A stretch of DNA of 64,000 nt, from assembly GCA_018303105.1 (NCBI GenBank), contig JAGVYU010000061.1, forward strand, positions 3,109 through 67,108, given 5' to 3'. Position numbers and translations under genes: made by a program. Below are positions 9,290 through 36,225 of this stretch, one piece after another. The notes under the pieces were generated by a model that saw only the letters and a list, made by a program, of their open reading frames with translations, was not told the origin of the DNA and searched no databases. This DNA comes from Candidatus Woesearchaeota archaeon (GTDB lineage Archaea; Nanobdellota; Nanobdellia; Woesearchaeales; JAGVYU01). How positions within the stretch are numbered: the stretch's first letter is position 1; each line of letters starts with the position of its first letter.

Positions 9290-10570
9290 TCAATTACAGG
9301 TGCCCGGTAATCCGGCAAATGTGTCACAATCATTGCTTGCACATTCGCTGTAGTAATAGCAGGATACTCCCCCGCAGAGCCCACAATCAGGATTGTTAGT
9401 TGGGGATATTGGATTGCTAGGATTATAACAGACACCAGAGCAAGTTGCCGTATCCACCGCCCCTTCAATAATCCCCTGAAACTCTTTCTTGCAATTGTGC
9501 AAAATTTCTTTTTTAATTTTGTATCCTATATCCTCTCCTGCATCAAGAAGCTGCCCTGCGTTGCCGTAAAAATTCCAAACCAAAAGCGGATCGTCTTGCT
9601 TAATTATCAGATCATTCTCTCCTGCAAAAGTTCCTTCAACGATTCTATTATCTGGGGCGAGATAAATACTATTTCTAGCAGTCGGAATAATAGCCGCATC
9701 ATTTGAGAAGAAAAACCGGTCACTTCCAATCTCATCACTCAATTGCTCATTCAACGCACTCAACGCACATTTCGGTATTTTTTCCCAATATTTGAGTCTT
9801 GTAAGGGTTCCTTCAGGGTCTATCTTCACGCGCACCGTTGTCTCTCCCGTTGTTTCATCGTATTCAAACGTTCTCTCTATTTTAACTCTGTCCTGTTCAT
9901 CAAAGATCTTATCGCATTCCGGTCCAAGTTCAGAATCTGATATTAATCTAAGGGGAACATCTCGCTTTGCTGCCATTATCTCCCTTACTATTTCACAAAA
10001 ATCCTTTTTCGTCAATTCAACATTCACCTCATCAATGAATGTGCAGTCATAGAGACTATTCTCTGACTCATCCGTTTGTCTAAATATGGCAAACTGCCCT
10101 TTGCCTTCAATCTTAGCTTGTAACCTTCCTTCATGCACGGCATAGCATTCAAAGTATGGCCAGGAGATGTCAATCTCGCCAATGTCAAAACTGCTCACAA
10201 TGGCGCCTTTCCTCATCATGAACACATCATCACCCATGCCAGACTCAATATTATCCTGAATAAGAGGATACTGCGCAAAAGAAGATGAAATCTCTTTCTT
10301 AGCGTCAATAAGATACACTTTATCCACGCCGCACGGCACCGTATACGTTTTAATCTGCTGATCACCGCGCTTTAAACCAACAACACGTGTATCATGCTTC
10401 AAATCCCCGGAAAACACCTGCAATTCTGTTTTACACCCGGCATTCTTGAAATCATAATACATCTTAAACCCAAAAACAATGATCAAGCCAACTATGACTA
10501 AGACAATAATAAACGCGAACTGTTCGCCTTCGATTTGCGCTTTTTTCAATTTGATAATTTTTCTTATCAT
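9290..10570 (-). CDS. Membrane-anchored extracellular protein with a Cys-rich C-terminus
   Basis: An N-terminal TM segment (FAFIIVLVIVGLIIVFGF) is followed by a large ectodomain that ends in a Cys cluster (CGLCGGVSCYYYSECASNDCD). Confidence 0.4.
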   Translation of the reverse strand: MIRKIIKLKKAQIEGEQFAFIIVLVIVGLIIVFGFKMYYDFKNAGCKTELQVFSGDLKHDTRVVGLKRGDQQIKTYTVPCGVDKVYLIDAKKEISSSFAQYPLIQDNIESGMGDDVFMMRKGAIVSSFDIGEIDISWPYFECYAVHEGRLQAKIEGKGQFAIFRQTDESENSLYDCTFIDEVNVELTKKDFCEIVREIMAAKRDVPLRLISDSELGPECDKIFDEQDRVKIERTFEYDETTGETTVRVKIDPEGTLTRLKYWEKIPKCALSALNEQLSDEIGSDRFFFSNDAAIIPTARNSIYLAPDNRIVEGTFAGENDLIIKQDDPLLVWNFYGNAGQLLDAGEDIGYKIKKEILHNCKKEFQGIIEGAVDTATCSGVCYNPSNPISPTNNPDCGLCGGVSCYYYSECASNDCDTFAGLPGTCN

Positions 10571-10606: not shown

Positions 10607-11683
10607 TCACTTTTTACTTAGGGTTATTTCCCTTAGCAATCTTCCAAACTTCCGATACCCTGAGAATTTATTGAAATGCCCTGCACCTTTGATAACGGTA
10701 ACAGATGCTTCGAGCTTTTTAGCGAGCATCTCAGCTTTTGCCAGGGGAACATACGGATCATTATTCGAGTGAATTATGGTAAAATGAGCACAGTGTTTTC
10801 TGATGTTATCCCAGTTGAACGACTTTGTGACAAAGGATCTGTTTACAGCGTCAAACTTGTTTCTTAACAATCCCGTAAACCCTGAAACAAAATACGCAGA
10901 CTTTACTTTTTTACGCTCAAGCACGTCAAGCAAAAACGCGCAGCCTAAACTATGGCCTATGACAATCGAATCTGGTTTTATCTTCTTCTCGTACTTTCTA
11001 AACTTTCTTCTCCACGTCTGCAGCGACTGTTTTGGGGGCTTCGGAAGTTTAGGGACATAGACACGATACCCTAAACGCTCAAGCTCTCCGCGGAGCCACG
11101 GATACCAGTTCTCCCCGGGACTGCCATAGGATCCGTGAATAATGAAAACACGCTGCGCATTTCTCTTCAGCCTGCTCTTGATACGGCCGGGAATCCTTTT
11201 GATCCTTTGCGGGATCTCCTGAACCGCCTCGCTTTTCCTGAAGTGCCATAATAAACCGAGCGCGCCTATGACGATCGCGCTGTCCGCGATATTAAACGTC
11301 GGCCAATGGTCATTCATGAGGAAAAAATCAAAAAAATCGGTCACATGCTGAAACGCAAACCGATCAATCATGTTGCCAATCGTGCCTCCGAGAATAAGTG
11401 CGGTTGCGAGCAGTGTTGTCCTTTCCTTTATCGCCTCATCAAAGTAATACAAGATAAAACCCAGGACTATTACTGAGATCCACGCGAGCATCAATGTCCA
11501 TTCCTTGAATAAGCCAAATCCTGCTCCCGTATTCTGCACATACCATAATGAGAAAAAGCCGTCAATAATAGGCATTGTCTGCCCAGGAATCAGAGAAGCA
11601 CGGACAACATGCTTCGTCCACTGATCAACGATCAAAATTAATAATGCAATTCCAAAGAATTGGAAGCCGCGATAGTCTCTCAT
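10607..11683 (-). CDS. lspA: Fusion of lipoprotein signal peptidase II (LspA) with a YdeN/RBBP9-type serine hydrolase
   Basis: Residues 1-160 read FQFFGIALLILIVDQWTKHVVRASLIPGQTMPIIDGFFSLWYVQNTGAGFGLF and NIADSAIVIGALGLL, the LspA signature blocks. The C-terminal 190 aa read VFIIHGSYGSPGENWYPWL...VIGHSLGCAF...GAGHFN, a Ser-Asp-His alpha/beta hydrolase. It is a single uninterrupted ORF. Confidence 0.7.
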   Translation of the reverse strand: MRDYRGFQFFGIALLILIVDQWTKHVVRASLIPGQTMPIIDGFFSLWYVQNTGAGFGLFKEWTLMLAWISVIVLGFILYYFDEAIKERTTLLATALILGGTIGNMIDRFAFQHVTDFFDFFLMNDHWPTFNIADSAIVIGALGLLWHFRKSEAVQEIPQRIKRIPGRIKSRLKRNAQRVFIIHGSYGSPGENWYPWLRGELERLGYRVYVPKLPKPPKQSLQTWRRKFRKYEKKIKPDSIVIGHSLGCAFLLDVLERKKVKSAYFVSGFTGLLRNKFDAVNRSFVTKSFNWDNIRKHCAHFTIIHSNNDPYVPLAKAEMLAKKLEASVTVIKGAGHFNKFSGYRKFGRLLREITLSKK

Positions 11684-13692: not shown

Positions 13693-14254
13693 AGCGGCAA
13701 AGGCCGTTTACAACGAGTATAAAGACAAAATAGAAGATATCATTCTCCTAGGGTCATTCATGAAGGGAAAAGAAGATCCAGAGGACATTGATGTGCTCAT
13801 CATTTTTAAGGAACAGGTGGATAAGCCTGTTGAGTCTGCGTTGAAAAAGGCATTGCATTTGAACAACTTGGACTTGAATTCGATCACACTCCAGGAACTT
13901 GAGGGAGACGGATTCATTGCCAAAGAGGGCGTTTACCTTGAAGGGTTTAGTCTTCTCCGGAATGCCCCTGTGAGCTCGAGGCTTGGGTTCTACAGTGTCG
14001 CATTCCTTTGCTATAATTTGAGTTCTCTTAAAGGATCTGCGCGCGTGAGATTCTACTACGCGCTTCAGGGAAGAGGTGTTGCTCCCGGATTTCTTAAAAC
14101 CCTGCAGGCAGCGCGATATTCTGACAATATCATACTCTGCGCATATGGAGAGATCGAGAAGCTAAAAAGTTTTTTTGAACAGTGGAAGATTCCGTATGTG
14201 ACTACACCCGCCCTGATTCCAAAAAGGTTGAAGCAAGTGCTGTTGGGGAAGTGA
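13658..14254 (+). CDS. Nucleotidyltransferase-domain protein (MNT-like) with a C-terminal extension
   Basis: IILLGSFMKGKEDPEDIDVLIIF fits the GS..DxD nucleotidyltransferase motif. Confidence 0.55.
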   Translation: MNMPSLLTTLHKAAKAVYNEYKDKIEDIILLGSFMKGKEDPEDIDVLIIFKEQVDKPVESALKKALHLNNLDLNSITLQELEGDGFIAKEGVYLEGFSLLRNAPVSSRLGFYSVAFLCYNLSSLKGSARVRFYYALQGRGVAPGFLKTLQAARYSDNIILCAYGEIEKLKSFFEQWKIPYVTTPALIPKRLKQVLLGK

Positions 14255-14293
14255 TTCACAATGAGTCGTGGGACTAGATAGAAATGATGGCTG

Positions 14294-14590
14294 TTGAGGG
14301 GAGGGTCATGCACTATTGAAATGGTGCTGGAGTTGGAAGGGTTGTGGTGGATATCTGTGTGTTTACCCGCAAGCATTATAAAGAATCCGGAAGTGAGTAT
14401 CCTAATGAGCAGTTATATTTGTAATGTATGCAAAAATCCAGTTGAACACGATGAAAATACCCAGATATTAGAGTTTAATGGTTATTTTGTCTGTAGCGGA
14501 TGCTACCTAAAGCTGAATGGAGCAGAGCTATCTGATATTAAAGAGATACTTTTGAGAATTGAAAAGAAGATTGATTCAAAGATGAAATAG
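14294..14590 (+). CDS. Small zinc-ribbon protein
   Basis: It has two CxxC pairs (CNVCKN ... CSGCY). Confidence 0.3.
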   Translation: MRGGSCTIEMVLELEGLWWISVCLPASIIKNPEVSILMSSYICNVCKNPVEHDENTQILEFNGYFVCSGCYLKLNGAELSDIKEILLRIEKKIDSKMK

Positions 14591-14905
14591 TTCTAGTTGC
14601 CATAAGAGACAATATGTGTCGGTAATGATCTATTATCCCTACGCTGGTTAGCGTGAAGTTACTCAACTGAATTCTTTTTGGTTCCATACGTTTTAGCACA
14701 GAATCTTGCTGACTTTTTGTGGTTTTTCTACCATGCTAAATGATAATCTCTTCAGAGATTGCTTAGCAAAGATTTACATGATGGCAAAACCCAATATGTA
14801 CATGGGCCTCGCCCAAAGTGAGGTCTAGGCGTTAACTAAAGACAGGGGATCACAATGTACGTTGGACTATAACAAGATTTATATAATCTCGGTAGTACGG
14901 GCGTC

Positions 14906-15298
14906 ATGTGGGGTTTAGTGGGAAAGATATACCTGATCATTGTGCTTCTTTTTGTGCTGTCGTGCGCCCCTCTAAGCAGAGAATACGTTAACAATTGTGA
15001 ACAATCCGGGGGAGATTATACTTCTGGTTTCTCTGAAACCAAAGGCCAATATTATTTTTGTGAATGTCCAGATGGCAAATACGAATCAGGAGGGATCTGT
15101 CACGATATCGCTGCTCAACAGGTGGAACTCTGCGAAAAAGTATCTAACAAATTTGTAAACTGTGCGGTTGATGGCAGCGAGTGCATATGCACATTTATAG
15201 ATTCTGGAACAGTCTCTTTTTTACCAATTGGAGTATTGGAAACTTCAAATTGTGAATGCTTTGATGGAGGATGTGGATGCGGACCAAACCTAAACTAA
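14906..15298 (+). CDS. Small Cys-rich secreted lipoprotein
   Basis: A signal peptide ends in the lipobox LFVLSC. The protein has 16 Cys and overlaps the start of the giant gene. Confidence 0.4.
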   Translation: MWGLVGKIYLIIVLLFVLSCAPLSREYVNNCEQSGGDYTSGFSETKGQYYFCECPDGKYESGGICHDIAAQQVELCEKVSNKFVNCAVDGSECICTFIDSGTVSFLPIGVLETSNCECFDGGCGCGPNLN

Positions 15299-18200
15299 TG
15301 GCGTTGCTGAATATATCCGTCTTTTTTCTCTTCATCCTTGTCCAAGTAGCTTATGCTGATTTAGAAGGATATGTGTATAAAGTTAAAGACGGACCAGAAG
15401 GATACTACGCAAGTTCTTCATTTTCTTCAGGAACGCTTCATTTTTTCTTCGATAACGCTGAGGAAATTTCAACTCAACTAAATGAAGATGGCTCTTTTGA
15501 GATCGATCCGGGTGACCTGTTTTGTTGGGAGGGGTGTAATATTTACCCTGCAATCACCCTAAAAGAAATTCGCGTATATGAGGGGGAAGAGCCCCTAAGT
15601 TCATTATTAATCCCTTATTCAAATATAAATCAGTCATACAATGCTATCAATCCCGTTTTTATAAATTTATTTTTAGATAACAAAGAGATTAATGACGACG
15701 TGATAACCTGGGATTCATCGTTTATAAGTGCTGAAGACCTAATTGGAATACAATCCTCGGAGGAATCTATTTATTTTGTGTCCTGGAATGGAACAATAGT
15801 TATCCCAGAGGAGGAGGAATATTTTTTTAGTTTTGAGGGGATGGGAAGTGTAAACTTTTGGATTGATGGTCAACAGGGGATATTCAAAGGTAAGGTGGGG
15901 GAGGGAATAAAACTTACTCCGGGAGAACACGAACTAAGAGCAGAATATTTTATACTCAATAGTACTTCATCTCCGAATATACTTTGGCGATACAACGAGG
16001 TTTCTGGGTTTGTCCCTTTGGAAAATCTTCGAATTACTTCAGGAGAATCCAAGAAAGTAATGAAGGACTCGCGTTTCCAGACGTTATCATTATCTGATTA
16101 TGGACTTTCTGAGATTTATCCATCTTGGAGCTGGTGGGGATATGTTACGTACAATACGCAAAAAAGACCATTACTTTTGATACATGGTTGGTCTAATAAT
16201 AATCTCGGTCCAGCGCAGACTAATCTCTGGACACAGTGGGGGACATTGCCGGGGGGCTTGGAGAATTTGGGAGATGAAATACTTGAAGTGGTTTATAACC
16301 CTGCAAATTTGGACAATCGGAAAAATGCGGGAATGCTGAATTTAGTCCTGTCCCAAATAAAGAATTACGGCTATAATTTTGAAAAAATAGATGTTGCCGC
16401 TCATAGCATGGGCGGATTAGCTGTCAGGGGGTATATACAAAACATGGGATTAACATCGAGTGGGAACTCTGTTTCATACGGATCTAACATTAGGAAAGCG
16501 ATATTTATTGGTAGTCCACTCCAGGGAACATATTTAGCAAATCTGATAAATGATGGATATAACTTCCCAGGTTCCTGTGATGCTTTGGATTTTTTCTTCA
16601 ACCTCAATGTAGTATCAGAGGCTACCAAGAACATGGAAATTGGTAGTGATTACTTATGGAACTTGAATACTGCATCTTTCAACAGCAATGTTGATTACTT
16701 AACGATCGGAGGATTTAATCAGTATGTTGCCTGCTTATATAATAGTAATATGGTAGAGGATGGCGTTGTGCCTATGAGCAGCTCCAACTTATTAGGGTAT
16801 AACGTCCCACATATTACACTAGATAGAGTCCACACAACAATCGTGGACAATCCGCAGGTGCTCGGAGTTATCGATGATTTTCTAAATAATCGAGGAACAA
16901 ATGAAATTAAATCCAACTTATATTATTCAGGAGAGTATTATATTGATCCAAGCTCCCATTATTATTTGGCACTAGGAGGTATTACCATTTCATTCACGGA
17001 CAAAAATCGGGTGACCGGAGTTCAAATTTATAACCCGACTACCGGATGGAAGAATTTATACCAAAATTCAAGAACCAAACGGTGGTTTTATCTTAATCCA
17101 GTTCCGCCAAATTTCAATTTTAACTCGTTTACAACTGAACTTCCTGTAGGGACTTACAACATTTACTATAATGAAGGGTCGGGTTTCTTTTATTCGGGTC
17201 AAAATGCATATATAGACTATGACAGTACAACTTATGTAACAATAAATAACTTGGATTCTGACAACGACGGAATAAAAGATGTAAACGATAACTGTCCTTA
17301 TAGTTATAACCCAAATCAAGCCAATTATGATGGAGATTCTGCCGGAGATAACTGTGACCCAGATGATGATAATGATGGGTTCAATGATAATCAGGATGTT
17401 TGCCAGTTTCAATATGGAACGTGTAGGGGCTGTCCGTTAAATCCAAATTGGACATTAAATTCAACTTGGTCTGCATGCACTGTCCAAGATACACAATTCA
17501 AAAATTATTATGACACAAATATGTGCGGGCAGACACCTCCACCTCCAGTATCGCAAGCTTGCAATTTCTGCAATTACTCACCAACTAACACCAGCTGGTC
17601 CTTTTTTGCTAACGTAAGCTTATGCCGCACCAACGACACTCAGCTTATCAATGTGAGCAGAAAAGAATACGATTCAAATTACGCATCCTGCTATCAAATT
17701 ACGGGGATTTCATTCGACCTTTGGAACAATGGGCAGAATAAGACCCATTACACAACAAATCAAACATCCTGTGATTACTGCTATCCAATACCCCTGAACT
17801 CCTCATGGGGCGACTGGTACAATATCACTGTATGTAGAGCGAATAAGACTAAAGTCCAGGAGAGGGAAAAAACCGAGTTTGACTCCGCCTACAGCATGTG
17901 CTATGCTCTTACACAGAATCCATTAGATAAATGGAATAATGGGAACAACAAAACGCACTATCAGCAGACAACGATACCCTGTTGTGATCCTATCCTTACA
18001 AATACATCGCCCAGTCAGTGGACAAACGTCTCCTGCCTAATCAATGATACTATGAATCAAACTCGGTTCAAGATAGAGTATGATTCTAATAGTTGCGGTA
18101 CGGTCCAAAACAGAACAATTATTGAATACCAACAAATAGAAAAATGCGACTTCTGCAAACCAAATCCTATAAACACGAGCTGGAGTCCATGGCAAAACGC

Positions 18201-20067
18201 GACTCAGTGTATGCCCAATGATAAGTATGTCCAGAATTCCTCCAAGACAGAGTACGATGCTAATTATCAAAGTTGTTATGCAGTGACTAATTTATCCACT
18301 GATCGATGGAATAATGGCATTAATAAGACTTATTGGAATTTCACAAACAAGACGTGCGACTTCTGCACTCCCTCGTGGAGTTGCTCAGGATACGGCGCTT
18401 GTCAGATGAATGGAACTCAGAGGTGCAATGCCGCACTCGATGCAAACTCCTGTTTCGCCCAGACCCATCTAAATAATGATAATTACCCGGGCAATTATTC
18501 AGAATTCCCAACGAACATGTGCCCCATCGAGTGCTCAACGAATTCTGATTGCAATGATGGGAATCAAAGCACAGAGGATAGCTGCATTAACGCCTCAACG
18601 ATAATCTCTAACTGTACATATTCCACTATCAACTGCTTCACAGACTCTGAATGTGGCGAGACTGGATTTATTGGCTCTTTGTTCTGCGGGGGTAATGATA
18701 TTCAACAGAATTATCAAACCGCCACTTGTTCCAATCCGGGAACGTCACAAAGCAATTGTTCCGTAACACTCTCTCCAGAATACATCCAAACGTGCGATTT
18801 TGCATGCTTTGAAGGAGTGTGCAAGGAGTGCGATGAAGATGCGGACTGTAATGACAACAATGCTGCAACAGAGGACACTTGTCAAAATGAGGGAACGTCA
18901 AATGCCATTTGCAGAAGTCTACCCATCAGATGCTTCACTGATATAGATTGCGGAATTAACGGTTACGAAGGAGATGAGTTTTGTAGCGGAGATAATATCC
19001 AACAAGAGTACAGATCATTTACATGCTTAGATCCAGCAACATCCGATAGCTCCTGCACATCGAGTACAACACCGTTAACCAATAATATTTGCGATTACGC
19101 CTGCCTCGAAGGCTCATGCATTCGATGCAATGAAAACGCTGATTGTAATGACAACAATAGCCTAACAGCAGACACTTGTATTAACCCTGCAACATTCCAA
19201 AGCAATTGCTCAAACAAACTTAGTCCTCTAGTTATCAACTCTCCTGCGGATGCAGTATTCGGTGTAAAACGTATTCCCGTAAATATCTCCACGAATGAAG
19301 CCATTGATGAAATAACATACCGGGATTTACGAGATGCCCGAGGCAGAGAAAGAACACTATGTAGTAGAGGATGCGAAGGCTACGGCAATGACAAGAAGAA
19401 AACCATCACCTTTAATGACGGGGAGCATGAAGTCAGCTTTAAAGCATACAACCCAACAGGACAGGTTATAGACGAAGAGATCGTAACTTTTAGGGTAGAC
19501 AGCAAAAAACCAAAAATAACCAAAACAAGCCCAACATCAGGATTTGGAACGGGAATTTTTGAGGTGGAGTTTAAAGAAGAAAACCCTGCAGAGCTCATGC
19601 TCCATTATGGCAGCGAAGATCCAAGACTGGTTAACATAGAAGATGAATGCACGTTGGAGAAGGATACATACGCCTGCGCGCCAGAAGTGGATGTATCCCA
19701 GTATGATGGAAGCTCTTTGAGCTATTGGTTTGGCCTTAAAGACATTGCTGGAAGTATGGACTCTTCGCGACCGCGTAGTATTGATGTGGATATAACACCG
19801 CCAGTCATCAATTCATTTGGCTTCCCGCCACCTGATGGAAGAAGCGTCACATTTACATTCAACGTAACTGAACAGAACTTCGATTCCATCAAATATGAAG
19901 ATTGGAGCAACGGAAAGCCAAAAACAGGCACACTCTGCACACGATTAAAGAATGGGATATGTGAAGCTAGGAAAACATTTAGTAAAGGAAGTCATAACGT
20001 CATCTTTACAATAGCAGATTATGCGGGGAATGAAGAGCAAACGAGTGCGGTGTTTACGATAACATAG
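15271..20067 (+). CDS. Giant secreted surface protein: PGAP1-like lipase domain, thrombospondin type-3 calcium-binding repeats, and two families of Cys-rich repeats rich in N-glycosylation sequons
   Basis: A signal peptide is present. AAHSMGGLAVRGY is the GHSMGG nucleophile elbow. DSDNDGIKDVNDNCPYSYNPNQANYDGDSAGDNCDPDDDNDGFND is a TSP3-type DxDxDG repeat. A roughly 60-aa module (CxxC...NxSW...YDSNYxSCY...WNNGxNKTHY) occurs at least 5 times. A second roughly 95-aa module (CxTDxDCG...NCS...CDxAC.EG.C..C.E.ADCND.N..T.D.C) occurs 3 times. There are dozens of NxS/T sites. Confidence 0.8.
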   Translation: MWMRTKPKLMALLNISVFFLFILVQVAYADLEGYVYKVKDGPEGYYASSSFSSGTLHFFFDNAEEISTQLNEDGSFEIDPGDLFCWEGCNIYPAITLKEIRVYEGEEPLSSLLIPYSNINQSYNAINPVFINLFLDNKEINDDVITWDSSFISAEDLIGIQSSEESIYFVSWNGTIVIPEEEEYFFSFEGMGSVNFWIDGQQGIFKGKVGEGIKLTPGEHELRAEYFILNSTSSPNILWRYNEVSGFVPLENLRITSGESKKVMKDSRFQTLSLSDYGLSEIYPSWSWWGYVTYNTQKRPLLLIHGWSNNNLGPAQTNLWTQWGTLPGGLENLGDEILEVVYNPANLDNRKNAGMLNLVLSQIKNYGYNFEKIDVAAHSMGGLAVRGYIQNMGLTSSGNSVSYGSNIRKAIFIGSPLQGTYLANLINDGYNFPGSCDALDFFFNLNVVSEATKNMEIGSDYLWNLNTASFNSNVDYLTIGGFNQYVACLYNSNMVEDGVVPMSSSNLLGYNVPHITLDRVHTTIVDNPQVLGVIDDFLNNRGTNEIKSNLYYSGEYYIDPSSHYYLALGGITISFTDKNRVTGVQIYNPTTGWKNLYQNSRTKRWFYLNPVPPNFNFNSFTTELPVGTYNIYYNEGSGFFYSGQNAYIDYDSTTYVTINNLDSDNDGIKDVNDNCPYSYNPNQANYDGDSAGDNCDPDDDNDGFNDNQDVCQFQYGTCRGCPLNPNWTLNSTWSACTVQDTQFKNYYDTNMCGQTPPPPVSQACNFCNYSPTNTSWSFFANVSLCRTNDTQLINVSRKEYDSNYASCYQITGISFDLWNNGQNKTHYTTNQTSCDYCYPIPLNSSWGDWYNITVCRANKTKVQEREKTEFDSAYSMCYALTQNPLDKWNNGNNKTHYQQTTIPCCDPILTNTSPSQWTNVSCLINDTMNQTRFKIEYDSNSCGTVQNRTIIEYQQIEKCDFCKPNPINTSWSPWQNATQCMPNDKYVQNSSKTEYDANYQSCYAVTNLSTDRWNNGINKTYWNFTNKTCDFCTPSWSCSGYGACQMNGTQRCNAALDANSCFAQTHLNNDNYPGNYSEFPTNMCPIECSTNSDCNDGNQSTEDSCINASTIISNCTYSTINCFTDSECGETGFIGSLFCGGNDIQQNYQTATCSNPGTSQSNCSVTLSPEYIQTCDFACFEGVCKECDEDADCNDNNAATEDTCQNEGTSNAICRSLPIRCFTDIDCGINGYEGDEFCSGDNIQQEYRSFTCLDPATSDSSCTSSTTPLTNNICDYACLEGSCIRCNENADCNDNNSLTADTCINPATFQSNCSNKLSPLVINSPADAVFGVKRIPVNISTNEAIDEITYRDLRDARGRERTLCSRGCEGYGNDKKKTITFNDGEHEVSFKAYNPTGQVIDEEIVTFRVDSKKPKITKTSPTSGFGTGIFEVEFKEENPAELMLHYGSEDPRLVNIEDECTLEKDTYACAPEVDVSQYDGSSLSYWFGLKDIAGSMDSSRPRSIDVDITPPVINSFGFPPPDGRSVTFTFNVTEQNFDSIKYEDWSNGKPKTGTLCTRLKNGICEARKTFSKGSHNVIFTIADYAGNEEQTSAVFTIT

Positions 20068-20207
20068 CTTTTCTGGAAACCCCCGGAACTATTCCGACGC
20101 TCTCCCAAAGGTTTAAATAGATAAACTTTTGAAAGATAACTCATGGCTTTTATGACAATTAAAGCTCCCACCAGCAATCTTTTTAAACGTTCTAATAACC
20201 ACAGAGG

Positions 20208-21026
20208 ATGGTGAGGGGTGTGTTGCTAACAAAAGATGAGGCTATATGCCTCATATTGAAACTGTCAAAAAACGGAGAAGTCTCGTCTCCAACTAAATTA
20301 AACAAGCTGCTGGCAAGATTAAACCTCTTCTTTATTCCCATTGAATTTAAATTTTCATTGAATAAGTTTGGTTCCTTTAGCGCTGACGTATCTGATTTGC
20401 AGGACAACGATTATTTTGGCGTGGTGCCCTATGAGTATATGGGAAAAATCACCAGGAAATTCGTGTTAAAACCGGAAGGAAGCGTACTTTTTGCACAGAC
20501 CATCAAGCCAAAGATTGATAAGATACTTAAACCAGAAGAATTCGAGGAACTGAAAGAAACGATTCAACATCTTAGCTCATTACGCGCAGCTGAAATTTCT
20601 GATAATGAACACAAAAAACTTCTTGTTGATATTGATGACCGGTTTAAGCTCGCACAAAAGATCAACTCAACATTTGTAGAACTGTCTGAGATTTACCAGA
20701 AGATAAACACGATACAAGAGAACACCATTGCAGAAATAGGGTTAAAAGCATTGATAGAATACTGTTATCACCTCATCAAGTATTTGAAGGAAAAAAGGTT
20801 TAAACACCTTCCAGAGGAGGAATATGATTTTGATGCTCACATGTTTGACTATTATTTCTTGGAGAACGTATCCAAAATAATACCTTTTTTAAATGAACAA
20901 ATCTCGAGTCAGGAGAAAGATGCTATAAAAATAAATAAGTTTTATCAATATTTTGTAAATTCCGTAAGAGAGGAGTATCCCTTCTCGATTGATAATAAGC
21001 ATCTGAAAGAATTGATCACTTGCTGA
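20208..21026 (+). CDS. Hypothetical protein in the AT-rich cassette
   Basis: Open reading frame with codon usage distinct from its neighbours (about 35% GC) and a helical C-terminal half. Confidence 0.4.
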   Translation: MVRGVLLTKDEAICLILKLSKNGEVSSPTKLNKLLARLNLFFIPIEFKFSLNKFGSFSADVSDLQDNDYFGVVPYEYMGKITRKFVLKPEGSVLFAQTIKPKIDKILKPEEFEELKETIQHLSSLRAAEISDNEHKKLLVDIDDRFKLAQKINSTFVELSEIYQKINTIQENTIAEIGLKALIEYCYHLIKYLKEKRFKHLPEEEYDFDAHMFDYYFLENVSKIIPFLNEQISSQEKDAIKINKFYQYFVNSVREEYPFSIDNKHLKELITC

Positions 21027-21610
21027 CCATGCCAAATACGTATGCCTTCGATGATTGCTCAATCTTAAAATTGTGTTCAATACATATCCCGGTAGCATTT
21101 CAGGCATTCTTCCATAAAACCAGCGTGACTGCAAAAAACGGTAATAACGTGAAAGCACTCATTGATAAGCTGGCAGCGGCGGGATATCCCAAGTATAGAT
21201 TTGTCCCTTCTGAGAATATGGATGGGAACATAATAAAAGTTGCGAACCAGCTCTTAGAAGGATACAATATTCGTATGCTTTCCCCCGTATTCAAATACGA
21301 AGTTATAGGTCAATTAAAGGAGTTTAATGGCCGGATTAACGAAGAATTCCTGAAGATCAATAAAGGGGAGGATATTGCTGAGATTAAACAAATGTTTAAA
21401 CAAAGTATAAGAGAACTCAGTAAACAGGATTCTATGCCTCAGGATGACGACTTAAAGATTATTCAAGGATACTGCAAGTTTGAATGCGCTGGAGACAAAT
21501 ATCTCATTACTGAAGACGAACATTTTTGGGGTTATGCGGATTTAATTCTTAAACGATATAATATCTATGTAGTTAAAGAATGGGAATGTCATACCCTCAG
21601 TATCTCATAA
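21020..21610 (+). CDS. Hypothetical protein in the AT-rich cassette
   Basis: It overlaps the previous ORF by 7 nt, which suggests an operon. Confidence 0.4.
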   Translation: MLTMPNTYAFDDCSILKLCSIHIPVAFQAFFHKTSVTAKNGNNVKALIDKLAAAGYPKYRFVPSENMDGNIIKVANQLLEGYNIRMLSPVFKYEVIGQLKEFNGRINEEFLKINKGEDIAEIKQMFKQSIRELSKQDSMPQDDDLKIIQGYCKFECAGDKYLITEDEHFWGYADLILKRYNIYVVKEWECHTLSIS

Positions 21611-21650
21611 TCCCATGATTACCGACAAATAAATCTTTAAGTGGAGTAAA

Positions 21651-21890
21651 ATGACACAATGCCATCATTGCGGTGGACAAATGAAAAAGAGCGTAGATTT
21701 GATTATCCATAGTGGAAGAACTATTCCGCAAAGAGCACTGAAATGCGTTTCCTGCGGCAAATCCACCGTGAGCATGGAGGAGTACGAACGGGTCAGGAAG
21801 GTTCTGCATCCTTCTCTTTTTGATAAAATCAGGTCTTTTTTTAAGCCCAGCACGGAAGCCGTTGATCTTTTTAAGGGAAGGGTTCTTTAA
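21651..21890 (+). CDS. Small zinc-ribbon protein
   Basis: CHHCGG...CVSCGK gives two CxxC pairs. Confidence 0.4.
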   Translation: MTQCHHCGGQMKKSVDLIIHSGRTIPQRALKCVSCGKSTVSMEEYERVRKVLHPSLFDKIRSFFKPSTEAVDLFKGRVL

Positions 21891-21893
21891 TTT

Positions 21894-23351
21894 TTATAAT
21901 AGACTCTGCCTTTTTTGCTGCCGGGATTTAGGGGAGAAATATGAATGATCATCAAACATTCTCTCAATCTCTTTCAGGCTGAGGAATATGCCGTGTATCT
22001 CTTTGATTCTTGTTATGGCCTTTTCCGTGAATCCGTTTTTTGATATAAATATAAATTTGTATTCTCCCAAAAATGGGATGAGCTTGGATTTTTTCATCAA
22101 GCTATCGACAACGTCTATATCGACTGGCGCATTGGTCCATTTTACCTCTCCGACAAGTATCTTTCTGGATTTGTGATTATATGCGACAATATCTATTTCT
22201 TCGCCGGTCCTGTTCCACCAAGCGCCAATATTTTCAAAATCGAGAACATACTCATCTACCTCTTTGTTTATGTAGGTGATAAGCAGCTCTTTGCATATTC
22301 CCTCGAATACCCTCCCAACGTATGCATTAAGGTTTTCTTTAATTTCATCTTCTACAAGTTTACTATTGCCGATATTAAGGGCAGTCTGATTTGGAAATAC
22401 AAACCGATACCAAAAACTAAAGAAATTATCTTTTAATCCGTACCTTCCAAGCCGTTCCTTGCCCAGTACAGGGTCTTTTCTTCCCAGCAGATCTAGCAAT
22501 TCATCAAGTCTTTTTATGTATGCAGGCATAGTATTTACATCAATTCCTGTAAAATCATGGATTTCTTTGATCGTTTCCTTACCTGCAGAAGCTGCCTGCA
22601 ATATCGAGTTATATTTAGCATGTATTCGCACATTCTCGTATTCAAGCAAGTTTTTTGGCTCTTCAAATAATTCTGCTCCTTTCTTTAGTAATAGCTCATA
22701 TATTTTTTTGTGGATGTCTCCCCCTACTCTTTTGACTTTTTCAAGATAATAAGGTGTACCGCCAAAGACCGCATAGGTAGTTATTTTTTCTTCTTCATTT
22801 AACTCTTTAAACATTAATCTGAAATCAGAATATTTAAAAGGAGCTATTTTTATCCTTGCTGCTCGCCCATATAACGCTCCTGCTTTGCTATTCGTTATCT
22901 TTTGTATCATGCCAATTGATGAGCCAACAAGGAGGAGCATAAGTTTTTTATTCTTTAACTTTTGATCCCAATAATTCTGTAATTCTGTTATAAACTGGGG
23001 TGAAATTTCCAGAAACCTTTGGAATTCATCAATGACTAAGACAAAAACCGTATCCGACTTTCCCGCTATAAAATCCAAAAAATCGCTAAAATCTGCAAAC
23101 GCTCTCACTTCGCCTAGTTGCTCTTGAACTGTTTTCGATAAAGAGTCTAGTATTCCTTGCTTTTCCACCAGATCTACATAGAAATACAGTTTATTTTCCG
23201 GCAGTGATTTAATAAACTGCCGTATTAACTCTGTTTTACCTACTCTTCGCCTTCCATAGACAACGAACATTTTGCCAGACTGCAAATTAGCAAACTCTTC
23301 TTTTAGCAGTTTGAACTCCTGCTTCCTATCGTAAAACGTGCTGTTTTCCAT
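21894..23351 (-). CDS. Archaeal-ATPase family protein (PF01637-like AAA) with a C-terminal DUF234/PD-(D/E)xK-like domain
   Basis: Walker A is VVYGRRRVGKTELI and Walker B is VLVIDEFQ. The C-terminus reads EIDIVAYNH...ILVGEVKW, a D...E.K nuclease-like motif. Confidence 0.75.
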   Translation of the reverse strand: MENSTFYDRKQEFKLLKEEFANLQSGKMFVVYGRRRVGKTELIRQFIKSLPENKLYFYVDLVEKQGILDSLSKTVQEQLGEVRAFADFSDFLDFIAGKSDTVFVLVIDEFQRFLEISPQFITELQNYWDQKLKNKKLMLLLVGSSIGMIQKITNSKAGALYGRAARIKIAPFKYSDFRLMFKELNEEEKITTYAVFGGTPYYLEKVKRVGGDIHKKIYELLLKKGAELFEEPKNLLEYENVRIHAKYNSILQAASAGKETIKEIHDFTGIDVNTMPAYIKRLDELLDLLGRKDPVLGKERLGRYGLKDNFFSFWYRFVFPNQTALNIGNSKLVEDEIKENLNAYVGRVFEGICKELLITYINKEVDEYVLDFENIGAWWNRTGEEIDIVAYNHKSRKILVGEVKWTNAPVDIDVVDSLMKKSKLIPFLGEYKFIFISKNGFTEKAITRIKEIHGIFLSLKEIERMFDDHSYFSPKSRQQKRQSLL

Positions 23352-23476
23352 TTTATATTAGCATGATAATGTTATAACATTAACAAACTAATGTTATATA
23401 TAAATCTTTCGAATTTGGCCATATTAATTACTATGGCCGCGCTCGAAGTACTTGGGGATGAAGGGATGAAAGTTAA

Positions 23477-23603
23477 TCCGGCTTAAAGAACAACCTCTGC
23501 GTAGCACGAACGACCTTTAGCAAGGGAAACCACAATGTCCTCTTTACGATAGCAGATGATGCAGCAAATAACGAGCAAACGAGTGCGGTGTTAACAATTT
23601 GAT
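23477..23603 (+). pseudogene. Remnant of the last roughly 42 codons of a paralogue of the giant surface-protein gene
   Basis: It translates as SGLKNNLCVARTTFSKGNHNVLFTIADDAANNEQTSAVLTI*. The end of the 15271..20067 gene reads LKNGICEARKTFSKGSHNVIFTIADYAGNEEQTSAVFTIT*. The two are about 80% identical in nucleotides over 80 bp. An in-frame stop lies immediately upstream of the fragment. Confidence 0.55.
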
Positions 23604-23835
23604 ACTCCAGCAATTCCACACAGACTTAGTCAAGATGGACGTCTCAATAGAAGATGCGGAAAAGCTCTTTAAAGAAGCAATACAAACCTTAAAAGAAGAA
23701 ATTCCGTATAAAGCGGAAGACTGCCAGTATTGTGTATACATAGACGAAAATAATGCGTAACTCCACATTCTAACTCGGAATTATTCCGACAAATTCTAAG
23801 AAGCCTATGTAAACCCCATAATTTAAATCTAAGGC

Positions 23836-24189
23836 ATGCAGACAAGGATCAGAGCAGAAAATCCTGAGAAAATCAAAAGCATTCTGAGAACATACAAAGA
23901 GCAGGATATTGAGTATAATGAGGTTAATGACCACTTTAACCACAAACTAAAGAGAGAAGGTGTCAACAAGCAGGATGTGATAAGAAACCTATTAAACCCA
24001 GAAAACCTAATATTCGTCGGGGTCTCAAAATCGAAAAATCCACGGTTTGAGTATGTCCATGATCTTTACTTCAAAATTGGCAAAAACAGAATCATAAAAA
24101 TACCGACGAGCATGAAAGCGAAATCTTTATATCTTATCACAATAATCGGAATGAGGAGGATTGATGATGAAGCGCGAAAATACGAGTAA
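23836..24189 (+). CDS. DUF4258-like small protein (putative toxin of a DUF4258/DUF2283 pair)
   Basis: Size and overlap with the downstream DUF2283-like ORF support the pairing. This is a weak motif-level call. Confidence 0.35.
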   Translation: MQTRIRAENPEKIKSILRTYKEQDIEYNEVNDHFNHKLKREGVNKQDVIRNLLNPENLIFVGVSKSKNPRFEYVHDLYFKIGKNRIIKIPTSMKAKSLYLITIIGMRRIDDEARKYE

Positions 24190-35328: not shown

Positions 35329-35499
35329 ATGAGCAAAGGAACAGCGTCCATGGGTGTTAAGTCTGGCAAGAAGAATCATATCTATTGCAGACGCTGTGGG
35401 AGAAAGACGTATCACCTTACTCGAAAGCGCTGCTCAAGCTGCGGGTATGGAAAGAGTGCCCGAATCAGAGCATACACGTGGGCTAAGAAGAAGCATTAG
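35329..35499 (+). CDS. rpl37e: 50S ribosomal protein L37e
   Basis: [56 protein letters not shown] is a C4 zinc ribbon typical of L37e. This frame was not listed in the track because of length. Confidence 0.85.
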
Positions 35500-36196: not shown

Positions 36197-36225
36197 TTAT
36201 ATATATTTCCGATTCAAAGACGCGC

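What the first reader, a model, noticed from the sequence alone, without database searches (positions are those of the whole stretch)
15271..20067. 1598-aa secreted protein combining a PGAP1-like lipase domain, TSP3 calcium-binding repeats and heavily sequon-studded Cys-rich repeat families
Two internal repeat families are visible.
- The first is about 60 aa and occurs at least 5 times. Each copy contains paired cysteines, a conserved W and an NGxNKTHY motif.
- The second is about 95 aa and occurs 3 times. It reads CxTD(S/I)(E/D)CG...C.EG.C..C.E.ADCNDNN..TED.C and resembles disulfide-rich modules.

Nearly every repeat carries several NxS/T sequons. Coupled with the adjacent lipoprotein gene (14906..15298) this looks like a major surface glycoprotein or adhesin. 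Thrombospondin type-3 repeats and a GHSMGG lipase elbow together are an unusual combination for an archaeon.
Basis: seen in the sequence. Interest (0 to 1): 0.6.

Follow-up and report, generated by a model that had tools for sequence, protein, structure and literature searches.

The report
Archaeal lipase on a glycosylated stalk
This gene from a tiny symbiotic (DPANN) archaeon encodes an exported lipase-like enzyme on a long cysteine-rich stalk, built from two repeat modules seen so far only in DPANN archaea, one predicted to fold like animal thrombospondin type-1 repeats and studded with conserved N-glycosylation sites.

Summary
The ORF 15271..20067 (1598 aa) is real and its main features are confirmed, with corrections.

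Domain order:
- signal peptide
- beta-sandwich
- PA14 lectin-like domain
- alpha/beta-hydrolase: elbow is AHSMGG, not GHSMGG; Ser379/Asp497/His521 and HGW305 are invariant in the family; hhalign to Bacillus LipA gives 95%
- second beta-sandwich
- thrombospondin type-3 calcium repeats
- six "A" repeats
- B1-B2-B1-B2-B1 Cys-rich modules
- three Ig-like domains

Key results:
- Sequon enrichment is confined to the A repeats (27 observed vs 9.4±2.6 expected). The sequons sit at conserved positions across 750 A units from 155 proteins.
- A and B have no Pfam or NCBIfam match. Every relative that carries an organism name is Woese-, Pace- or Nanoarchaeota.
- In relatives the same stalk carries other heads (beta-helix, papain, LamG, S8 protease).
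- The upstream lipobox gene is a conserved partner in the 3 PA14-head loci and absent from 5 others.

Best reading: a surface-displayed or secreted esterase/lipase on an N-glycosylated stalk. It is a new variant of a known kind, of moderate interest.

The parts
14906..15298 (+). Small Cys-rich lipobox protein (130 aa, 13 Cys; N-terminus ...LLFVLS-C-AP). It overlaps the big ORF by 28 nt and is a conserved partner gene.
   Evidence: Translation; lipobox regex. It is homologous to the gene immediately upstream of P0002 (38% id, E 7e-29, same 28-nt overlap) and of P0003 (30% id, E 3e-18). It is absent next to 5 family members that lack the PA14 head. No Pfam or PDB relative.
15271..20067 (+). Whole ORF, 1598 aa plus stop. 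The likely true start is Met3 at 15277.
   Evidence: GGAGG at 15266-15270 lies 6 nt before the ATG at 15277. An identical protein occurs on 3 public contigs.
15271..15357 (+). Sec-type signal peptide (aa 1-29; basic n-region, hydrophobic core, AYA|D).
   Evidence: Read directly from the sequence. No predictor was run.
15358..15645 (+). N-terminal beta-sandwich (aa ~30-125) with the Cys85/Cys89 pair.
   Evidence: AF2 model strands, pLDDT 55-79. Conserved only in P0002, P0003 and partly P0007. No Pfam hit.
15769..16065 (+). PA14 domain (aa ~167-265).
   Evidence: Pfam PA14, 28.8 bits against a cut-off of 24, E 1.2e-6 on the segment; E 6.8e-5 on the whole protein.
16123..16941 (+). Alpha/beta-hydrolase, lipase class 2 / DUF7379-like (aa ~285-557). 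Oxyanion H305-G-W; Ser379 (16405-16407) in AHSMGG; Asp497 (16759-16761); His521 (16831-16833).
   Evidence: Pfam DUF915 28.7 (cut-off 22), DUF7379 29.9 (cut-off 33), Lipase_2 17.7 (cut-off 20.3). The four motif residues are invariant in 7-8 homologues. hhalign of the family profile against B. subtilis LipA gives prob 95.2%, E 2.6e-8. Asp and His align with the LipA-type Asp and His. Foldseek top hits are bacterial lipases, e.g. 6wpy with TM 0.67.
16972..17244 (+). Family-conserved beta-sandwich after the hydrolase (aa ~568-658; GEYYIDP and RWFYLN motifs).
   Evidence: AF2 strands, pLDDT up to 86. Conserved in all homologues. No Pfam hit.
17254..17400 (+). Thrombospondin type-3 calcium-binding repeats (aa 662-710; DSDNDGIKDVNDNCP...DPDDDNDGFNDNQDVC).
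   Evidence: Pfam TSP_3 E 2.2e-5, 24.5 bits (cut-off 25), two stretches. Motif read directly. 51% identity to TSP3 repeats of P0008.
17401..18519 (+). Six 'A' repeats: A1 711-763, A2 764-833, A3 834-903, A4 904-958, A5 959-1028, A6 1029-1083. Each has 4 Cys and a (N-T-S)-W-x-x-W...C...Q-x-R...Y-D-x-N-x-C pattern. They carry 27 N-x-S/T sequons and are predicted to be TSR-like.
18520..19230 (+). 'B' Cys-rich modules in the order B1a 1084-1121, B2a 1122-1183, B1b 1184-1220, B2b 1221-1282, B1c 1283-1320. There are 12 Cys per 99-aa period. Sequons are not enriched.
   Evidence: No Pfam hit and no PDB sequence relative.
19231..20064 (+). Three Ig-like domains (aa 1321-1598; Big_13-like, each with a Cys pair). 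This is a conserved C-terminal module and a candidate cell-proximal anchor.
   Evidence: Pfam Big_13, 31.4 bits against a cut-off of 27. Conserved in P0002, P0004, P0005, P0006, P0010, P0013, L002, L004 and L005. It never co-occurs with a C-terminal TM anchor: 0 of 19 proteins with the module vs 53 of 148 without it, Fisher p 5e-4.

Best explanation
The gene encodes an exported, modular 'enzyme on a stalk' of a DPANN archaeon.

**Proposed mechanism, step by step**
1. The protein is exported through Sec, and the signal peptide is cut after AYA29.
2. The N-terminal head sits at the distal end. It consists of a beta-sandwich, a PA14 lectin-like domain, a lipase-class-2-like serine hydrolase (Ser379-Asp497-His521, oxyanion HGW) and a second beta-sandwich.
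3. PA14 docks the head onto a glycan-bearing surface, and the hydrolase cleaves carboxylic ester bonds there (lipid or other ester).
4. A rigid spacer holds the head away from the cell. The spacer is made of calcium-binding TSP3 repeats, six TSR-like A repeats and five disulfide-rich B modules. The A repeats are covered with N-glycans at positionally conserved sequons and each carries two disulfides.
5. The C-terminal triple Ig-like module replaces the C-terminal transmembrane anchor used by related proteins. It probably holds the protein on the cell envelope.
6. The translationally coupled small Cys-rich lipoprotein is a membrane-tethered partner of the PA14-type head. It could be an inhibitor, a chaperone or a docking partner.

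**Shown here**
- The domain order.
- A conserved catalytic triad.
- Repeat homology.
- Sequon enrichment and positional conservation.
- Head-swapping among relatives.
- The polarity of the anchor.
- The conserved gene pair.

**Inferred**
- Export and signal-peptide cleavage.
- Actual glycosylation and disulfide formation.
- Calcium binding.
- Substrate class.
- The anchoring role of the Ig triple.
- The role of the lipoprotein.
For: **Architecture and catalytic residues:**

**Lipase relationship**
- hhalign of the family profile against LipA gives 95.2%, E 2.6e-8.
- PDB sequence hits are Bacillus-type lipases that share D-I/V-V/A-AHSMGG, and Asp and His align.
- Foldseek top hits are BlEst2 and the Proteus and Pseudomonas lipases.
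- Some family members fuse the same hydrolase to a subtilase (P0004, P0005), which points to a degradative role.

**Stalk**
- Repeats A and B recur in DPANN proteins with other heads: beta-helix (P0010, P0042), papain (P0016), LamG (P0019, P0023), BNR (P0014) and beta-propeller (P0024).
- In 72 of 73 relatives with a TM segment, that segment lies C-terminal to all A units.
- The Ig triple and a C-terminal TM anchor are mutually exclusive.

**Glycosylation**
- Sequon z is 6.9 in the A region only.
- Sequons start at family alignment columns 10, 18 and 47 in 68%, 51% and 52% of 750 units. The mean is 3.6 sequons per 52.6 aa.

**Partner gene:**

**Archaeal host:**
Against: - No enzymatic, glycoproteomic or localisation data exist.
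- Pfam scores for DUF7379 and Lipase_2 are below their gathering cut-offs.
- The N-terminal AF2 model is only moderate (mean pLDDT 59). Its coordinates could not be inspected, so triad geometry is unverified.
- No AglB (oligosaccharyltransferase) gene lies in the 64-kb window, so the capacity for N-glycosylation is assumed.
- Archaeal membrane lipids are ethers, so the natural ester substrate is unknown.
- The anchoring role of the Ig triple rests only on mutual exclusivity with TM anchors, in a set that includes truncated metagenomic proteins.
- P0003 has the partner lipoprotein but not the Ig triple, so the lipoprotein is probably not the anchor for that module.
Confidence: 0.6

Rival explanations
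1. A host-attack or lipid-harvesting weapon. The head is a (phospho)lipase that an ether-lipid archaeon can display safely, because only ester-lipid (bacterial) membranes are substrates. PA14 targets the host surface. The co-encoded lipoprotein is its immunity protein, inhibitor or foldase, by analogy with Tle-Tli pairs or lipase-Lif operons.
For: - The head has a lipase-type triad and lipase structural matches, including a membrane phospholipase A (6i8w) and the LipA:LipB foldase complex (9g8u) in the Foldseek list.
- The lipoprotein gene is conserved and translationally coupled, and occurs only with this head type.
- At least one DPANN symbiont is documented to depend on host lipids (PMC11035636, abstract, listed).
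Against: - No substrate data exist.
- The small lipoprotein has no similarity to Lif or to any known immunity family.
- The host of this organism is unknown.
- Known DPANN hosts are archaea, whose ether lipids a lipase cannot cut.
- Only three loci show the gene pair.
Confidence: 0.15
2. A freely secreted polymer-degrading carbohydrate or polyester esterase used for scavenging. The stalk modules act as stabilising or substrate-binding modules rather than as a cell-attached spacer.
For: - PA14 is typical of glycan-binding modules in secreted enzymes (Pfam PA14).
- The protein has no TM anchor or other recognised cell-wall anchor.
- Relatives carry beta-helix (pectate-lyase-like) and protease heads.
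Against: - Relatives with the same stalk are overwhelmingly C-terminally membrane-anchored (72 of 73). This argues that the stalk is a cell-surface spacer.
- The Ig triple substitutes exactly where the anchor would be.
Confidence: 0.2
3. One reading: a major surface glycoprotein or adhesin whose hydrolase domain is incidental or inactive.
For: - The protein has adhesion-type modules (PA14, TSP3, TSR-like, Ig-like) and dense sequons.
Against: - The catalytic Ser, Asp, His and oxyanion motif are invariant across homologues at 25-43% identity. That is not expected for a dead enzyme.
- The family is rare and variable in architecture, unlike S-layer or major envelope proteins.
- Sequons are depleted in the head.
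Confidence: 0.1

Closest known systems
Bacillus-type small lipases (lipase class 2, Pfam PF01674; B. subtilis LipA and relatives, bacterial lipase subfamily I.4)
   Same: - HG oxyanion motif.
- The unusual Ala-His-Ser-Met-Gly-Gly elbow, preceded by D-I/V-V/A.
- The order Ser...Asp...His.
- hhalign prob 95.2%, E 2.6e-8 over 87 columns.
- Asp497 and His521 align with the LipA-type Asp and His.
- Lipases are the best structural matches.
   Different: - The domain is about 270 aa with insertions, against 181 aa for LipA.
- It scores below the Lipase_2 gathering cut-off (17.7 vs 20.3).
- It is followed by a family-specific beta-sandwich and embedded in a 1598-aa multidomain protein.
- Its activity is untested.
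DUF7379 (PF24096) and DUF915 (PF06028) alpha/beta-hydrolases of unknown function, including 399-aa lipoprotein homologues in Zetaproteobacteria
   Same: These give the best Pfam matches. The bacterial homologue (L007 7839..9038) shares HGW, DIVAHSMGG and GSDFLWELN.
   Different: The bacterial proteins are single-domain lipoproteins. The DPANN versions are fused to heads, stalk modules and anchors.
Thrombospondin type-1 repeats (TSR/TSP1; thrombospondin-1, properdin, semaphorin-5A, CCN3)
   Same: - An elongated three-stranded predicted fold.
- W-x-x-W on the first strand and Q/R on the second.
- Tandem arrays in extracellular proteins.
- Heavily glycosylated.
   Different: - Four Cys per unit rather than six, and no CSxTCG.
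- Conserved N-x-S/T sequons in place of the C-mannosylation and O-fucosylation motifs.
- Long copies carry a two-helix insertion.
- No Pfam TSP_1 hit, and profile-profile probability is only 10.7%, on the WxxW..C stretch alone.
- Homology is not demonstrated. [quoted passage not shown]
Thrombospondin type-3 calcium-binding repeats (PF02412)
   Same: The D-x-D-x-D-G-x-x-D-x-x-D-N-C-P motif occurs twice at aa 662-710 (E 2.2e-5).
   Different: The score is just under the gathering cut-off (24.5 vs 25). There are only about two repeats. Calcium binding is untested.
Lipase/foldase (LipA-Lif) operons and Tle-Tli lipase effector/immunity lipoprotein pairs. This is an analogy recalled from general knowledge, not tested here.
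   Same: A secreted lipase-type enzyme is encoded next to a small membrane-tethered partner, and the gene pair is conserved.
   Different: The partner here is a ~110-aa protein with 12 conserved Cys and no detectable similarity to Lif or any Pfam or PDB family. It lies upstream and overlaps the enzyme gene.
Large multidomain surface proteins of other DPANN archaea, e.g. SPEARE proteins of Nanohaloarchaeum (recalled from Hamm et al. 2019, PMC6642349; not compared here)
   Same: Giant exported DPANN proteins that combine hydrolase and adhesion modules and are presumed to mediate host contact.
   Different: No shared module was tested. The A and B modules appear restricted to the Woese/Pace/Nanoarchaeota among named hits.

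Membership tests
Alpha/beta-hydrolase, lipase class 2-like (PF01674 / DUF7379 / DUF915) | Nucleophile elbow (G/A)-x-S-x-G | tested here: met
   A-H-S379-M-G-G; H-S-M-G is invariant in all homologues.
Alpha/beta-hydrolase, lipase class 2-like (PF01674 / DUF7379 / DUF915) | Oxyanion-hole HG motif after the first core strand | tested here: met
   LLIH305-G-W is invariant and aligns with VMVHGIGG of LipA.
Alpha/beta-hydrolase, lipase class 2-like (PF01674 / DUF7379 / DUF915) | Catalytic Asp and His downstream of Ser, conserved | tested here: met
   D497 and H521 are invariant and align with the Asp and His of a Bacillus-type lipase (weak second stretch).
Alpha/beta-hydrolase, lipase class 2-like (PF01674 / DUF7379 / DUF915) | Score at or above the Pfam gathering cut-off | tested here: inconclusive
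   On the segment: DUF915 28.7 >= 22 (met); DUF7379 29.9 < 33; Lipase_2 17.7 < 20.3. hhalign to LipA is 95.2%.
Alpha/beta-hydrolase, lipase class 2-like (PF01674 / DUF7379 / DUF915) | Ester hydrolase activity | not testable with these tools
   Needs a biochemical assay.
PGAP1-like (PF07819) | Match to the PGAP1 profile | tested here: not met
   No PF07819 hit at E<=0.1 on the protein or at E<=5 on the hydrolase segment. Only the homologue P0003 carries a weak precomputed hit.
PA14 (PF07691) | Match at or above the gathering cut-off | tested here: met
   28.8 bits against 24 on aa 169-280.
Thrombospondin type-3 repeat (PF02412) | Asp-rich DxDxDGxxDxxD(N)C motif and a profile match | tested here: inconclusive
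   The motif is present twice. The profile score is 24.5 bits against a cut-off of 25, E 2.2e-5.
Thrombospondin type-1 repeat (TSR, PF00090) | Profile or sequence homology to TSP_1 | tested here: not met
   No Pfam TSP_1 hit. The A profile against PDB sequences finds properdin only at E about 5. hhalign against a small TSR alignment gives prob 10.7% (the TSR sequences were recalled from memory).
Thrombospondin type-1 repeat (TSR, PF00090) | Elongated three-stranded fold | tested here: inconclusive
Thrombospondin type-1 repeat (TSR, PF00090) | WxxW on strand A stacked with Arg on strand B | tested here: inconclusive
   Across 750 family units, W is at column 13 in 68%, W at column 16 in 80%, Q at column 30 in 74% and R at column 32 in 68%. 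In this protein a full WxxW occurs only in A3 and A5.
Thrombospondin type-1 repeat (TSR, PF00090) | Six conserved Cys forming three disulfides | tested here: not met
   There are four conserved Cys per unit (columns 4, 22, 42 and column 1 of the next unit).
Bacterial Ig-like Big_13 (PF19077) | Match at or above the gathering cut-off | tested here: met
   31.4 bits against 27 on aa 1341-1598.
Bacterial-type lipoprotein (upstream gene 14906..15298) | Signal peptide ending in a lipobox [LVI][ASTVI][GAS]C | tested here: inconclusive
   The sequence is V-L-S-C, with Leu at -2 outside the strict pattern. The homologues have F-A-S-C and F-V-A-C. An LspA gene and three canonical lipobox ORFs lie in the window. 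Lipidation itself is not testable here.
N-glycoprotein (archaeal AglB substrate) | N-x-S/T sequons under selection | tested here: met
   z 6.9 in the A region. Sequons are positionally conserved across 750 units.
N-glycoprotein (archaeal AglB substrate) | Glycan actually attached, and an oligosaccharyltransferase present in the genome | not testable with these tools
   No STT3/AglB hit among the window ORFs scanned. The rest of the genome is not available.

The most novel reading that the evidence does not exclude
The A repeat is a true archaeal relative of the thrombospondin type-1 repeat, a module regarded as animal-lineage, but decorated with N-glycans instead of C-mannose and O-fucose. It forms the stalk of a DPANN-specific family of interchangeable surface 'tool carriers'. 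In this member the tool is an ester-lipid lipase. An ether-lipid archaeon would use it to attack or harvest the membranes of a bacterial host, and the co-encoded Cys-rich lipoprotein would act as its dedicated inhibitor or chaperone.
Probability: 0.1. Interest if true: 0.8.

Novelty: new variant of a known kind. Interest (0 to 1): 0.5.

Why it matters
- **Host contact in DPANN archaea.** These archaea are ultra-small and mostly uncultured, and those cultivated are episymbionts. How they recognise, hold and exploit hosts is largely unknown. This locus defines a modular surface system: interchangeable N-terminal heads, a stalk built from two repeat modules with no Pfam or NCBIfam match, and either a TM anchor or a triple-Ig C-terminal module. 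The system can be mined across DPANN genomes to list their host-contact 'tools'.
- **N-glycosylation.** The A repeat has one of the densest positionally conserved N-sequon patterns one could ask for, about one per 15 residues. That makes it a natural test substrate for N-glycosylation in DPANN archaea.
- **Origin of the TSR fold.** The predicted TSR-like fold raises the question of whether this adhesion fold pre-dates eukaryotes or arose convergently.
- **A lipase in an archaeon.** A lipase-type head with a conserved lipoprotein partner in an archaeon bears on how lipid-dependent symbionts obtain lipids.
- **Caveat.** None of this is demonstrated experimentally. The enzyme class itself is ordinary.

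Tried and rejected
1. **One structure job for A plus B together.**
   - MAFFT stacked short fragments onto a single unit.
   - I therefore modelled only an A4+A5 pair, using natural fragments.
2. **afdb50 fold search.** It was unavailable.
3. **PGAP1 label.** No profile hit, so it was rejected.
4. **Sequence-level link of A to TSP1.** Neither hmmsearch against PDB nor hhalign against recalled TSR sequences was significant. I claim only fold-level resemblance.
5. **B profile against PDB sequences.** Only chance hits.
6. **Small lipoprotein.**
   - I suspected a resemblance to DUF333 ('putative hemolysin'), which is present in P0016. Pfam at E<=10 and the PDB gave nothing, so I dropped the idea.
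   - A metagenome scan for more copies found one further locus. It matches the window protein as the P0002-linked gene does (38% identity, residues 8-125), and was not inspected further.
7. **Third homology search on the hydrolase segment.** It returned only one new protein, so the N-terminal MSA stayed shallow and that model is mediocre.
8. **Literature searches.** Queries for DPANN cysteine-rich surface proteins, DUF7379, DPANN lipases and TSR in archaea found no description of these modules.
9. **Rfam scan of the window.** No hits.
10. **A/B modules elsewhere in the window.** None.

Full report
**1. The observation**

The ORF 15271..20067 (+) exists and translates to 1598 aa without interruption. 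An identical protein is on record on three public contigs. One is ENA ERZ28563625, scaffold ANAN16-1_SAMN03842437...scaffold_1082, 63 kb. The protein has 68 Cys, of which 60 lie between aa 675 and 1313. It has 39 N-x-S/T sequons, 33 of them in aa 711-1320.

Cutting the protein into 60-aa fragments and running BLAST against itself gives two sets of off-diagonal matches. One set has offsets of about 55-70 aa between 702 and 1050, with E down to 1e-20. The other has an offset of exactly 99 aa between 1086 and 1330, with E down to 2e-21. Both repeat families are therefore real.

A GGAGG at 15266-15270 sits directly against the ATG at 15271 but 6 nt before the ATG at 15277. Met3 (MRTKPK...) is therefore the more likely start.

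**2. Organism**

The window carries an archaeal Gins51 (48685..49329) and an archaeal-type ATPase_2/DUF234 gene. A scan of one genome per species found relatives of the whole protein only in DPANN archaea: Nanoarchaeota SCGC AAA011-D5, Pacearchaeota and Woesearchaeota MAGs. The hydrolase domain alone also has relatives in Zetaproteobacteria. The lineage is DPANN, most likely the Pace/Woesearchaeota group; that placement is an inference from best hits.

**3. Architecture of the N-terminal head**

- aa 1-29 look like a Sec signal peptide ending in AYA|D.
- aa ~30-125 are predicted as a beta-sandwich.
- aa ~167-265 are a PA14 domain that passes the Pfam cut-off when the segment is scanned alone (28.8 vs 24).
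- aa ~285-557 are an alpha/beta-hydrolase. The Pfam matches are DUF7379, DUF915 (28.7 vs cut-off 22), Palm_thioest, DUF676 and Lipase_2. There is no PGAP1 hit.
- The elbow is AAHSMGG, not GHSMGG. This Ala-His-Ser-Met-Gly-Gly elbow, preceded by D-V/I-V/A, is the signature of Bacillus-type small lipases. Those lipases are the only PDB sequences that the domain touches.
- A profile of the family aligns with B. subtilis LipA (sequence recalled from memory) at 95.2% probability, E 2.6e-8, from the HG oxyanion loop to the elbow.
- In alignments of 7-8 homologues at 25-43% identity, H305-G-W, S379, D497 and H521 are invariant. D497 and H521 align with the Asp and His of a LipA-type lipase.
- The AF2 model of aa 28-700 is only moderate (pLDDT 59; hydrolase core 70-85). 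Its best Foldseek matches in the PDB are bacterial lipases: BlEst2 6wpy with TM 0.67, and the Proteus and Pseudomonas lipases.
The domain looks like an active serine esterase or lipase.
- A conserved beta-sandwich (aa ~568-658) follows the hydrolase in all homologues, bacterial ones included.

**4. TSP3 repeats**

aa 662-710 read DSDNDGIKDVNDNCPYSYNPNQANYDGDSAGDNCDPDDDNDGFNDNQDVC. This is the thrombospondin type-3 calcium-binding motif, present twice. Pfam gives E 2.2e-5 and 24.5 bits, just under the cut-off of 25.

**5. Repeat family A (aa 711-1083)**

There are six copies. Three are long, at 70 aa (A2, A3, A5). Three are short, at 53-55 aa (A1, A4, A6).

First and last units in relatives show where the true unit boundaries lie. 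The unit runs from the second Cys of the 'CDYC' motif to the first Cys of the next 'CDYC'. That gives four Cys per unit, presumably two disulfides.

*Sequons.* The A region has 27 sequons, against 9.4±2.6 in composition-preserving shuffles (z 6.9; 0 of 5000 shuffles reach 27). The B region has 6 against 5.8. The N-terminal 673 aa are depleted, at 3 against 10.

*Distribution.* A profile of the repeat found 305 cluster representatives among 1.84 billion proteins, 215 of them at E<=1e-10. Individual proteins carry up to 22 matched stretches and reach 5427 aa.

*Positional conservation.* I collected 750 units from 155 of these proteins. A sequon starts at alignment column 10 in 68% of units, at column 18 in 51% and at column 47 in 52%. 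Nearly every unit that has the insertion has a sequon in it. The mean is 3.6 sequons per 52.6 aa. This positional conservation over deep divergence is strong indirect evidence that the sites are used.

*Database status.* Neither Pfam (E<=5) nor NCBIfam recognises the module.

**6. Predicted fold of A**

I modelled the A4-A5 pair (aa 898-1034) with an alignment of 20 natural fragments. The model has mean pLDDT 92.6. Each unit has three long strands. The long unit adds two short helices between strands 2 and 3.

- Foldseek, run independently: properdin ranks first (E 0.02, prob 0.96) and semaphorin-5A TSR3-4 is also near the top.
- The conserved W-x-x-W on strand 1 and Q-x-R on strand 2 echo the TSR Trp/Arg ladder.

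The limits of this evidence are clear:
- The scores are low.
- The Cys pattern differs (4 vs 6).
- There is no Pfam TSP_1 hit.
- A profile-profile comparison with a few recalled TSR sequences aligns only the WxxW..C stretch, at 10.7% probability.
- I could not open the model coordinates.

I therefore call the module 'TSR-like by predicted fold'. Homology is open. [quoted passage not shown]

**7. Repeat family B (aa 1084-1320)**

The 99-aa period consists of two modules.
- B1 is about 37 aa: C-x2-3-C-x4-D-C-N-D-x-N-x2-T-x-D-x-C-x-N-P-G-T-x2-S-x-C.
- B2 is 62 aa: C-F-T-D-x-D-C-G-x2-G-F-x-G-x2-F-C-...-T-C-x-N-P-G-T-x2-S-x-C-...-C-x3-C-x2-G.

There are 12 Cys per period. No Pfam or PDB sequence relative was found.

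**8. The stalk idea**

Searching with aa 711-1340 returned 17 proteins. Every one that carries an organism name is from Pace-, Woese- or Nanoarchaeota. More names were recovered, and they come from the same groups.

These proteins carry A and/or B modules behind quite different N-terminal heads: right-handed beta-helix (P0010, P0042), papain-like protease (P0016), LamG (P0019, P0023), BNR/sortilin (P0014) and beta-propeller (P0024). Hydrolase-family members P0004 and P0005 add a subtilase.

In 72 of 73 relatives that have a TM segment beyond the signal peptide, that segment lies C-terminal to all A units. This gives a consistent polarity: head distal, A/B modules in the middle, anchor at the C-terminus.

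The present protein has no C-terminal TM. It ends instead in three Ig-like domains (Big_13, 31.4 vs 27). The same ending is shared with P0002, P0004, P0005, P0006, P0010, P0013 and the genomic homologues. Among 167 proteins, 19 end in this triple and none of those has a C-terminal TM. Of the other 148, 53 do (Fisher p 5e-4). I infer that the triple Ig module is an alternative cell-proximal attachment device. This is inference only.

**9. The neighbouring gene**

The 130-aa product of 14906..15298 has a signal sequence ending in V-L-S-C-A-P and 13 Cys.

- The genes immediately upstream of the two closest homologues encode homologous proteins. P0002 is at L012/L013 and P0003 at L014. Identities are 38% (E 7e-29) and 30% (E 3e-18), with 12 aligned Cys in the mature part.
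- Their lipoboxes are F-A-S-C and F-V-A-C.
- The arrangement is also kept: a 28-nt overlap in both the window and L012/L013, and a 1-nt gap in L014.
- Five family members that lack the beta-sandwich + PA14 head have no such neighbour.

The pair is therefore a conserved cassette tied to the PA14-type head. P0003 lacks the C-terminal Ig triple, so the cassette is not tied to that module.

The small protein has no Pfam or PDB relative. The window also encodes an LspA (signal peptidase II) fused to a serine hydrolase (10607..11683, E 9e-37), and three further ORFs with canonical lipoboxes. A bacterial-type lipoprotein route in this archaeon is therefore plausible.

**10. Mechanism (best reading, confidence about 0.6)**

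This is an exported serine esterase or lipase whose PA14 domain docks it to a glycan-bearing surface. It is held away from the archaeal cell by a calcium-, disulfide- and N-glycan-stabilised stalk. It is retained through the C-terminal Ig triple and works with a membrane-tethered Cys-rich lipoprotein.

If each A unit is about as long as a TSR (about 5 nm, recalled from the thrombospondin TSR crystal structure), the six A units alone could span about 25-30 nm. This is a rough inference.

Rivals:
- A host-membrane-attacking lipase with the lipoprotein as inhibitor or chaperone (0.15). This is attractive because an ether-lipid archaeon would be intrinsically immune. At least one DPANN symbiont is documented to depend on its host for lipids (PMC11035636).
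- A freely secreted carbohydrate or polyester esterase (0.2).
- A plain adhesin or major glycoprotein with a dead enzyme (0.1). The invariant triad argues against this.

**11. Novelty and verdict**

The enzyme class is ordinary, and the gene sits unannotated in public metagenomes. Three things appear not to have been described, within the limits of the libraries and the literature searches run here:
- The two DPANN-restricted stalk modules.
- The dense, positionally conserved N-sequons on a predicted TSR-like fold.
- The lipoprotein-hydrolase cassette.

I rate it a new variant of a known kind, with interest 0.5.

Noticed in passing
window 10607..11683 (-); also 45276..45983 (+), 35483..36196 (-), 50089..50574 (-): A bacterial-type lipoprotein signal peptidase (Peptidase_A8/LspA, E 9e-37) fused to a Ser_hydrolase domain sits in an archaeal contig. 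Three further ORFs carry canonical lipoboxes (FIVAC, LLVAC, LLVAC). This suggests a bacterial-style lipoprotein pathway in this DPANN archaeon. No Lgt was seen among the ORFs scanned.
   Followed up: partly
window ~14000..24000: G+C drops to 0.37-0.40 across the region holding the lipoprotein gene, the big ORF and the next genes, against 0.44-0.50 in most of the window. The region may be a variable or acquired island. Nucleotidyltransferase (DUF6932/NTP_transf_2) and ATPase_2/DUF234 genes flank it.
   Followed up: no
window 36031..37929 (+) and 37934..39610 (+); 41118..41837 (-); 1047..2012 (+): Glycosylation-related genes lie in the window. Of two adjacent TPR-repeat proteins, the second (37934..39610) also has a GT-C PMT_2 (dolichyl-phosphate-mannose protein mannosyltransferase-like) domain. 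There is also a GT2 glycosyltransferase and a GDP-mannose 4,6-dehydratase. No AglB/STT3 was found in the ORFs scanned.
   Followed up: no
window 52157..53647 (+) and 53685..55343 (+): Tandem paralogues with no Pfam hit. They share 39% identity over a 188-aa N-terminal multi-pass hydrophobic region (E 7e-40), followed by long charged, coiled-coil-like tails. They have 0-1 Cys and no sequons.
   Followed up: partly
L012 4426..7212 (-) (contig of homologue P0002): A second, divergently oriented DUF7379-type hydrolase protein (928 aa) lies next to the P0002 cassette. It has a different architecture: a Gly-rich linker, the hydrolase in the C-terminal half, and several C-terminal TM segments. These hydrolases therefore cluster in that genome.
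   Followed up: no
L007 7839..9038 (+) (Zetaproteobacteria MAG): The bacterial relatives of the hydrolase domain are ~400-aa lipoproteins (lipobox LVAC) with the same HGW, DIVAHSMGG and GSDFLWELN motifs plus the following beta-domain. They may be the source, or the sink, of a horizontal transfer with DPANN archaea.
   Followed up: partly
window 9290..10570 (-): A 426-aa protein with an N-terminal TM segment, 16 Cys and no Pfam hit lies immediately downstream of the LspA-hydrolase gene on the same strand.
   Followed up: no
window 15266..15279: The Shine-Dalgarno-like GGAGG is positioned for the ATG at 15277 (Met3) rather than the annotated 15271. With that start, the overlap with the upstream gene would be 22 nt instead of 28 nt.
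   Followed up: yes
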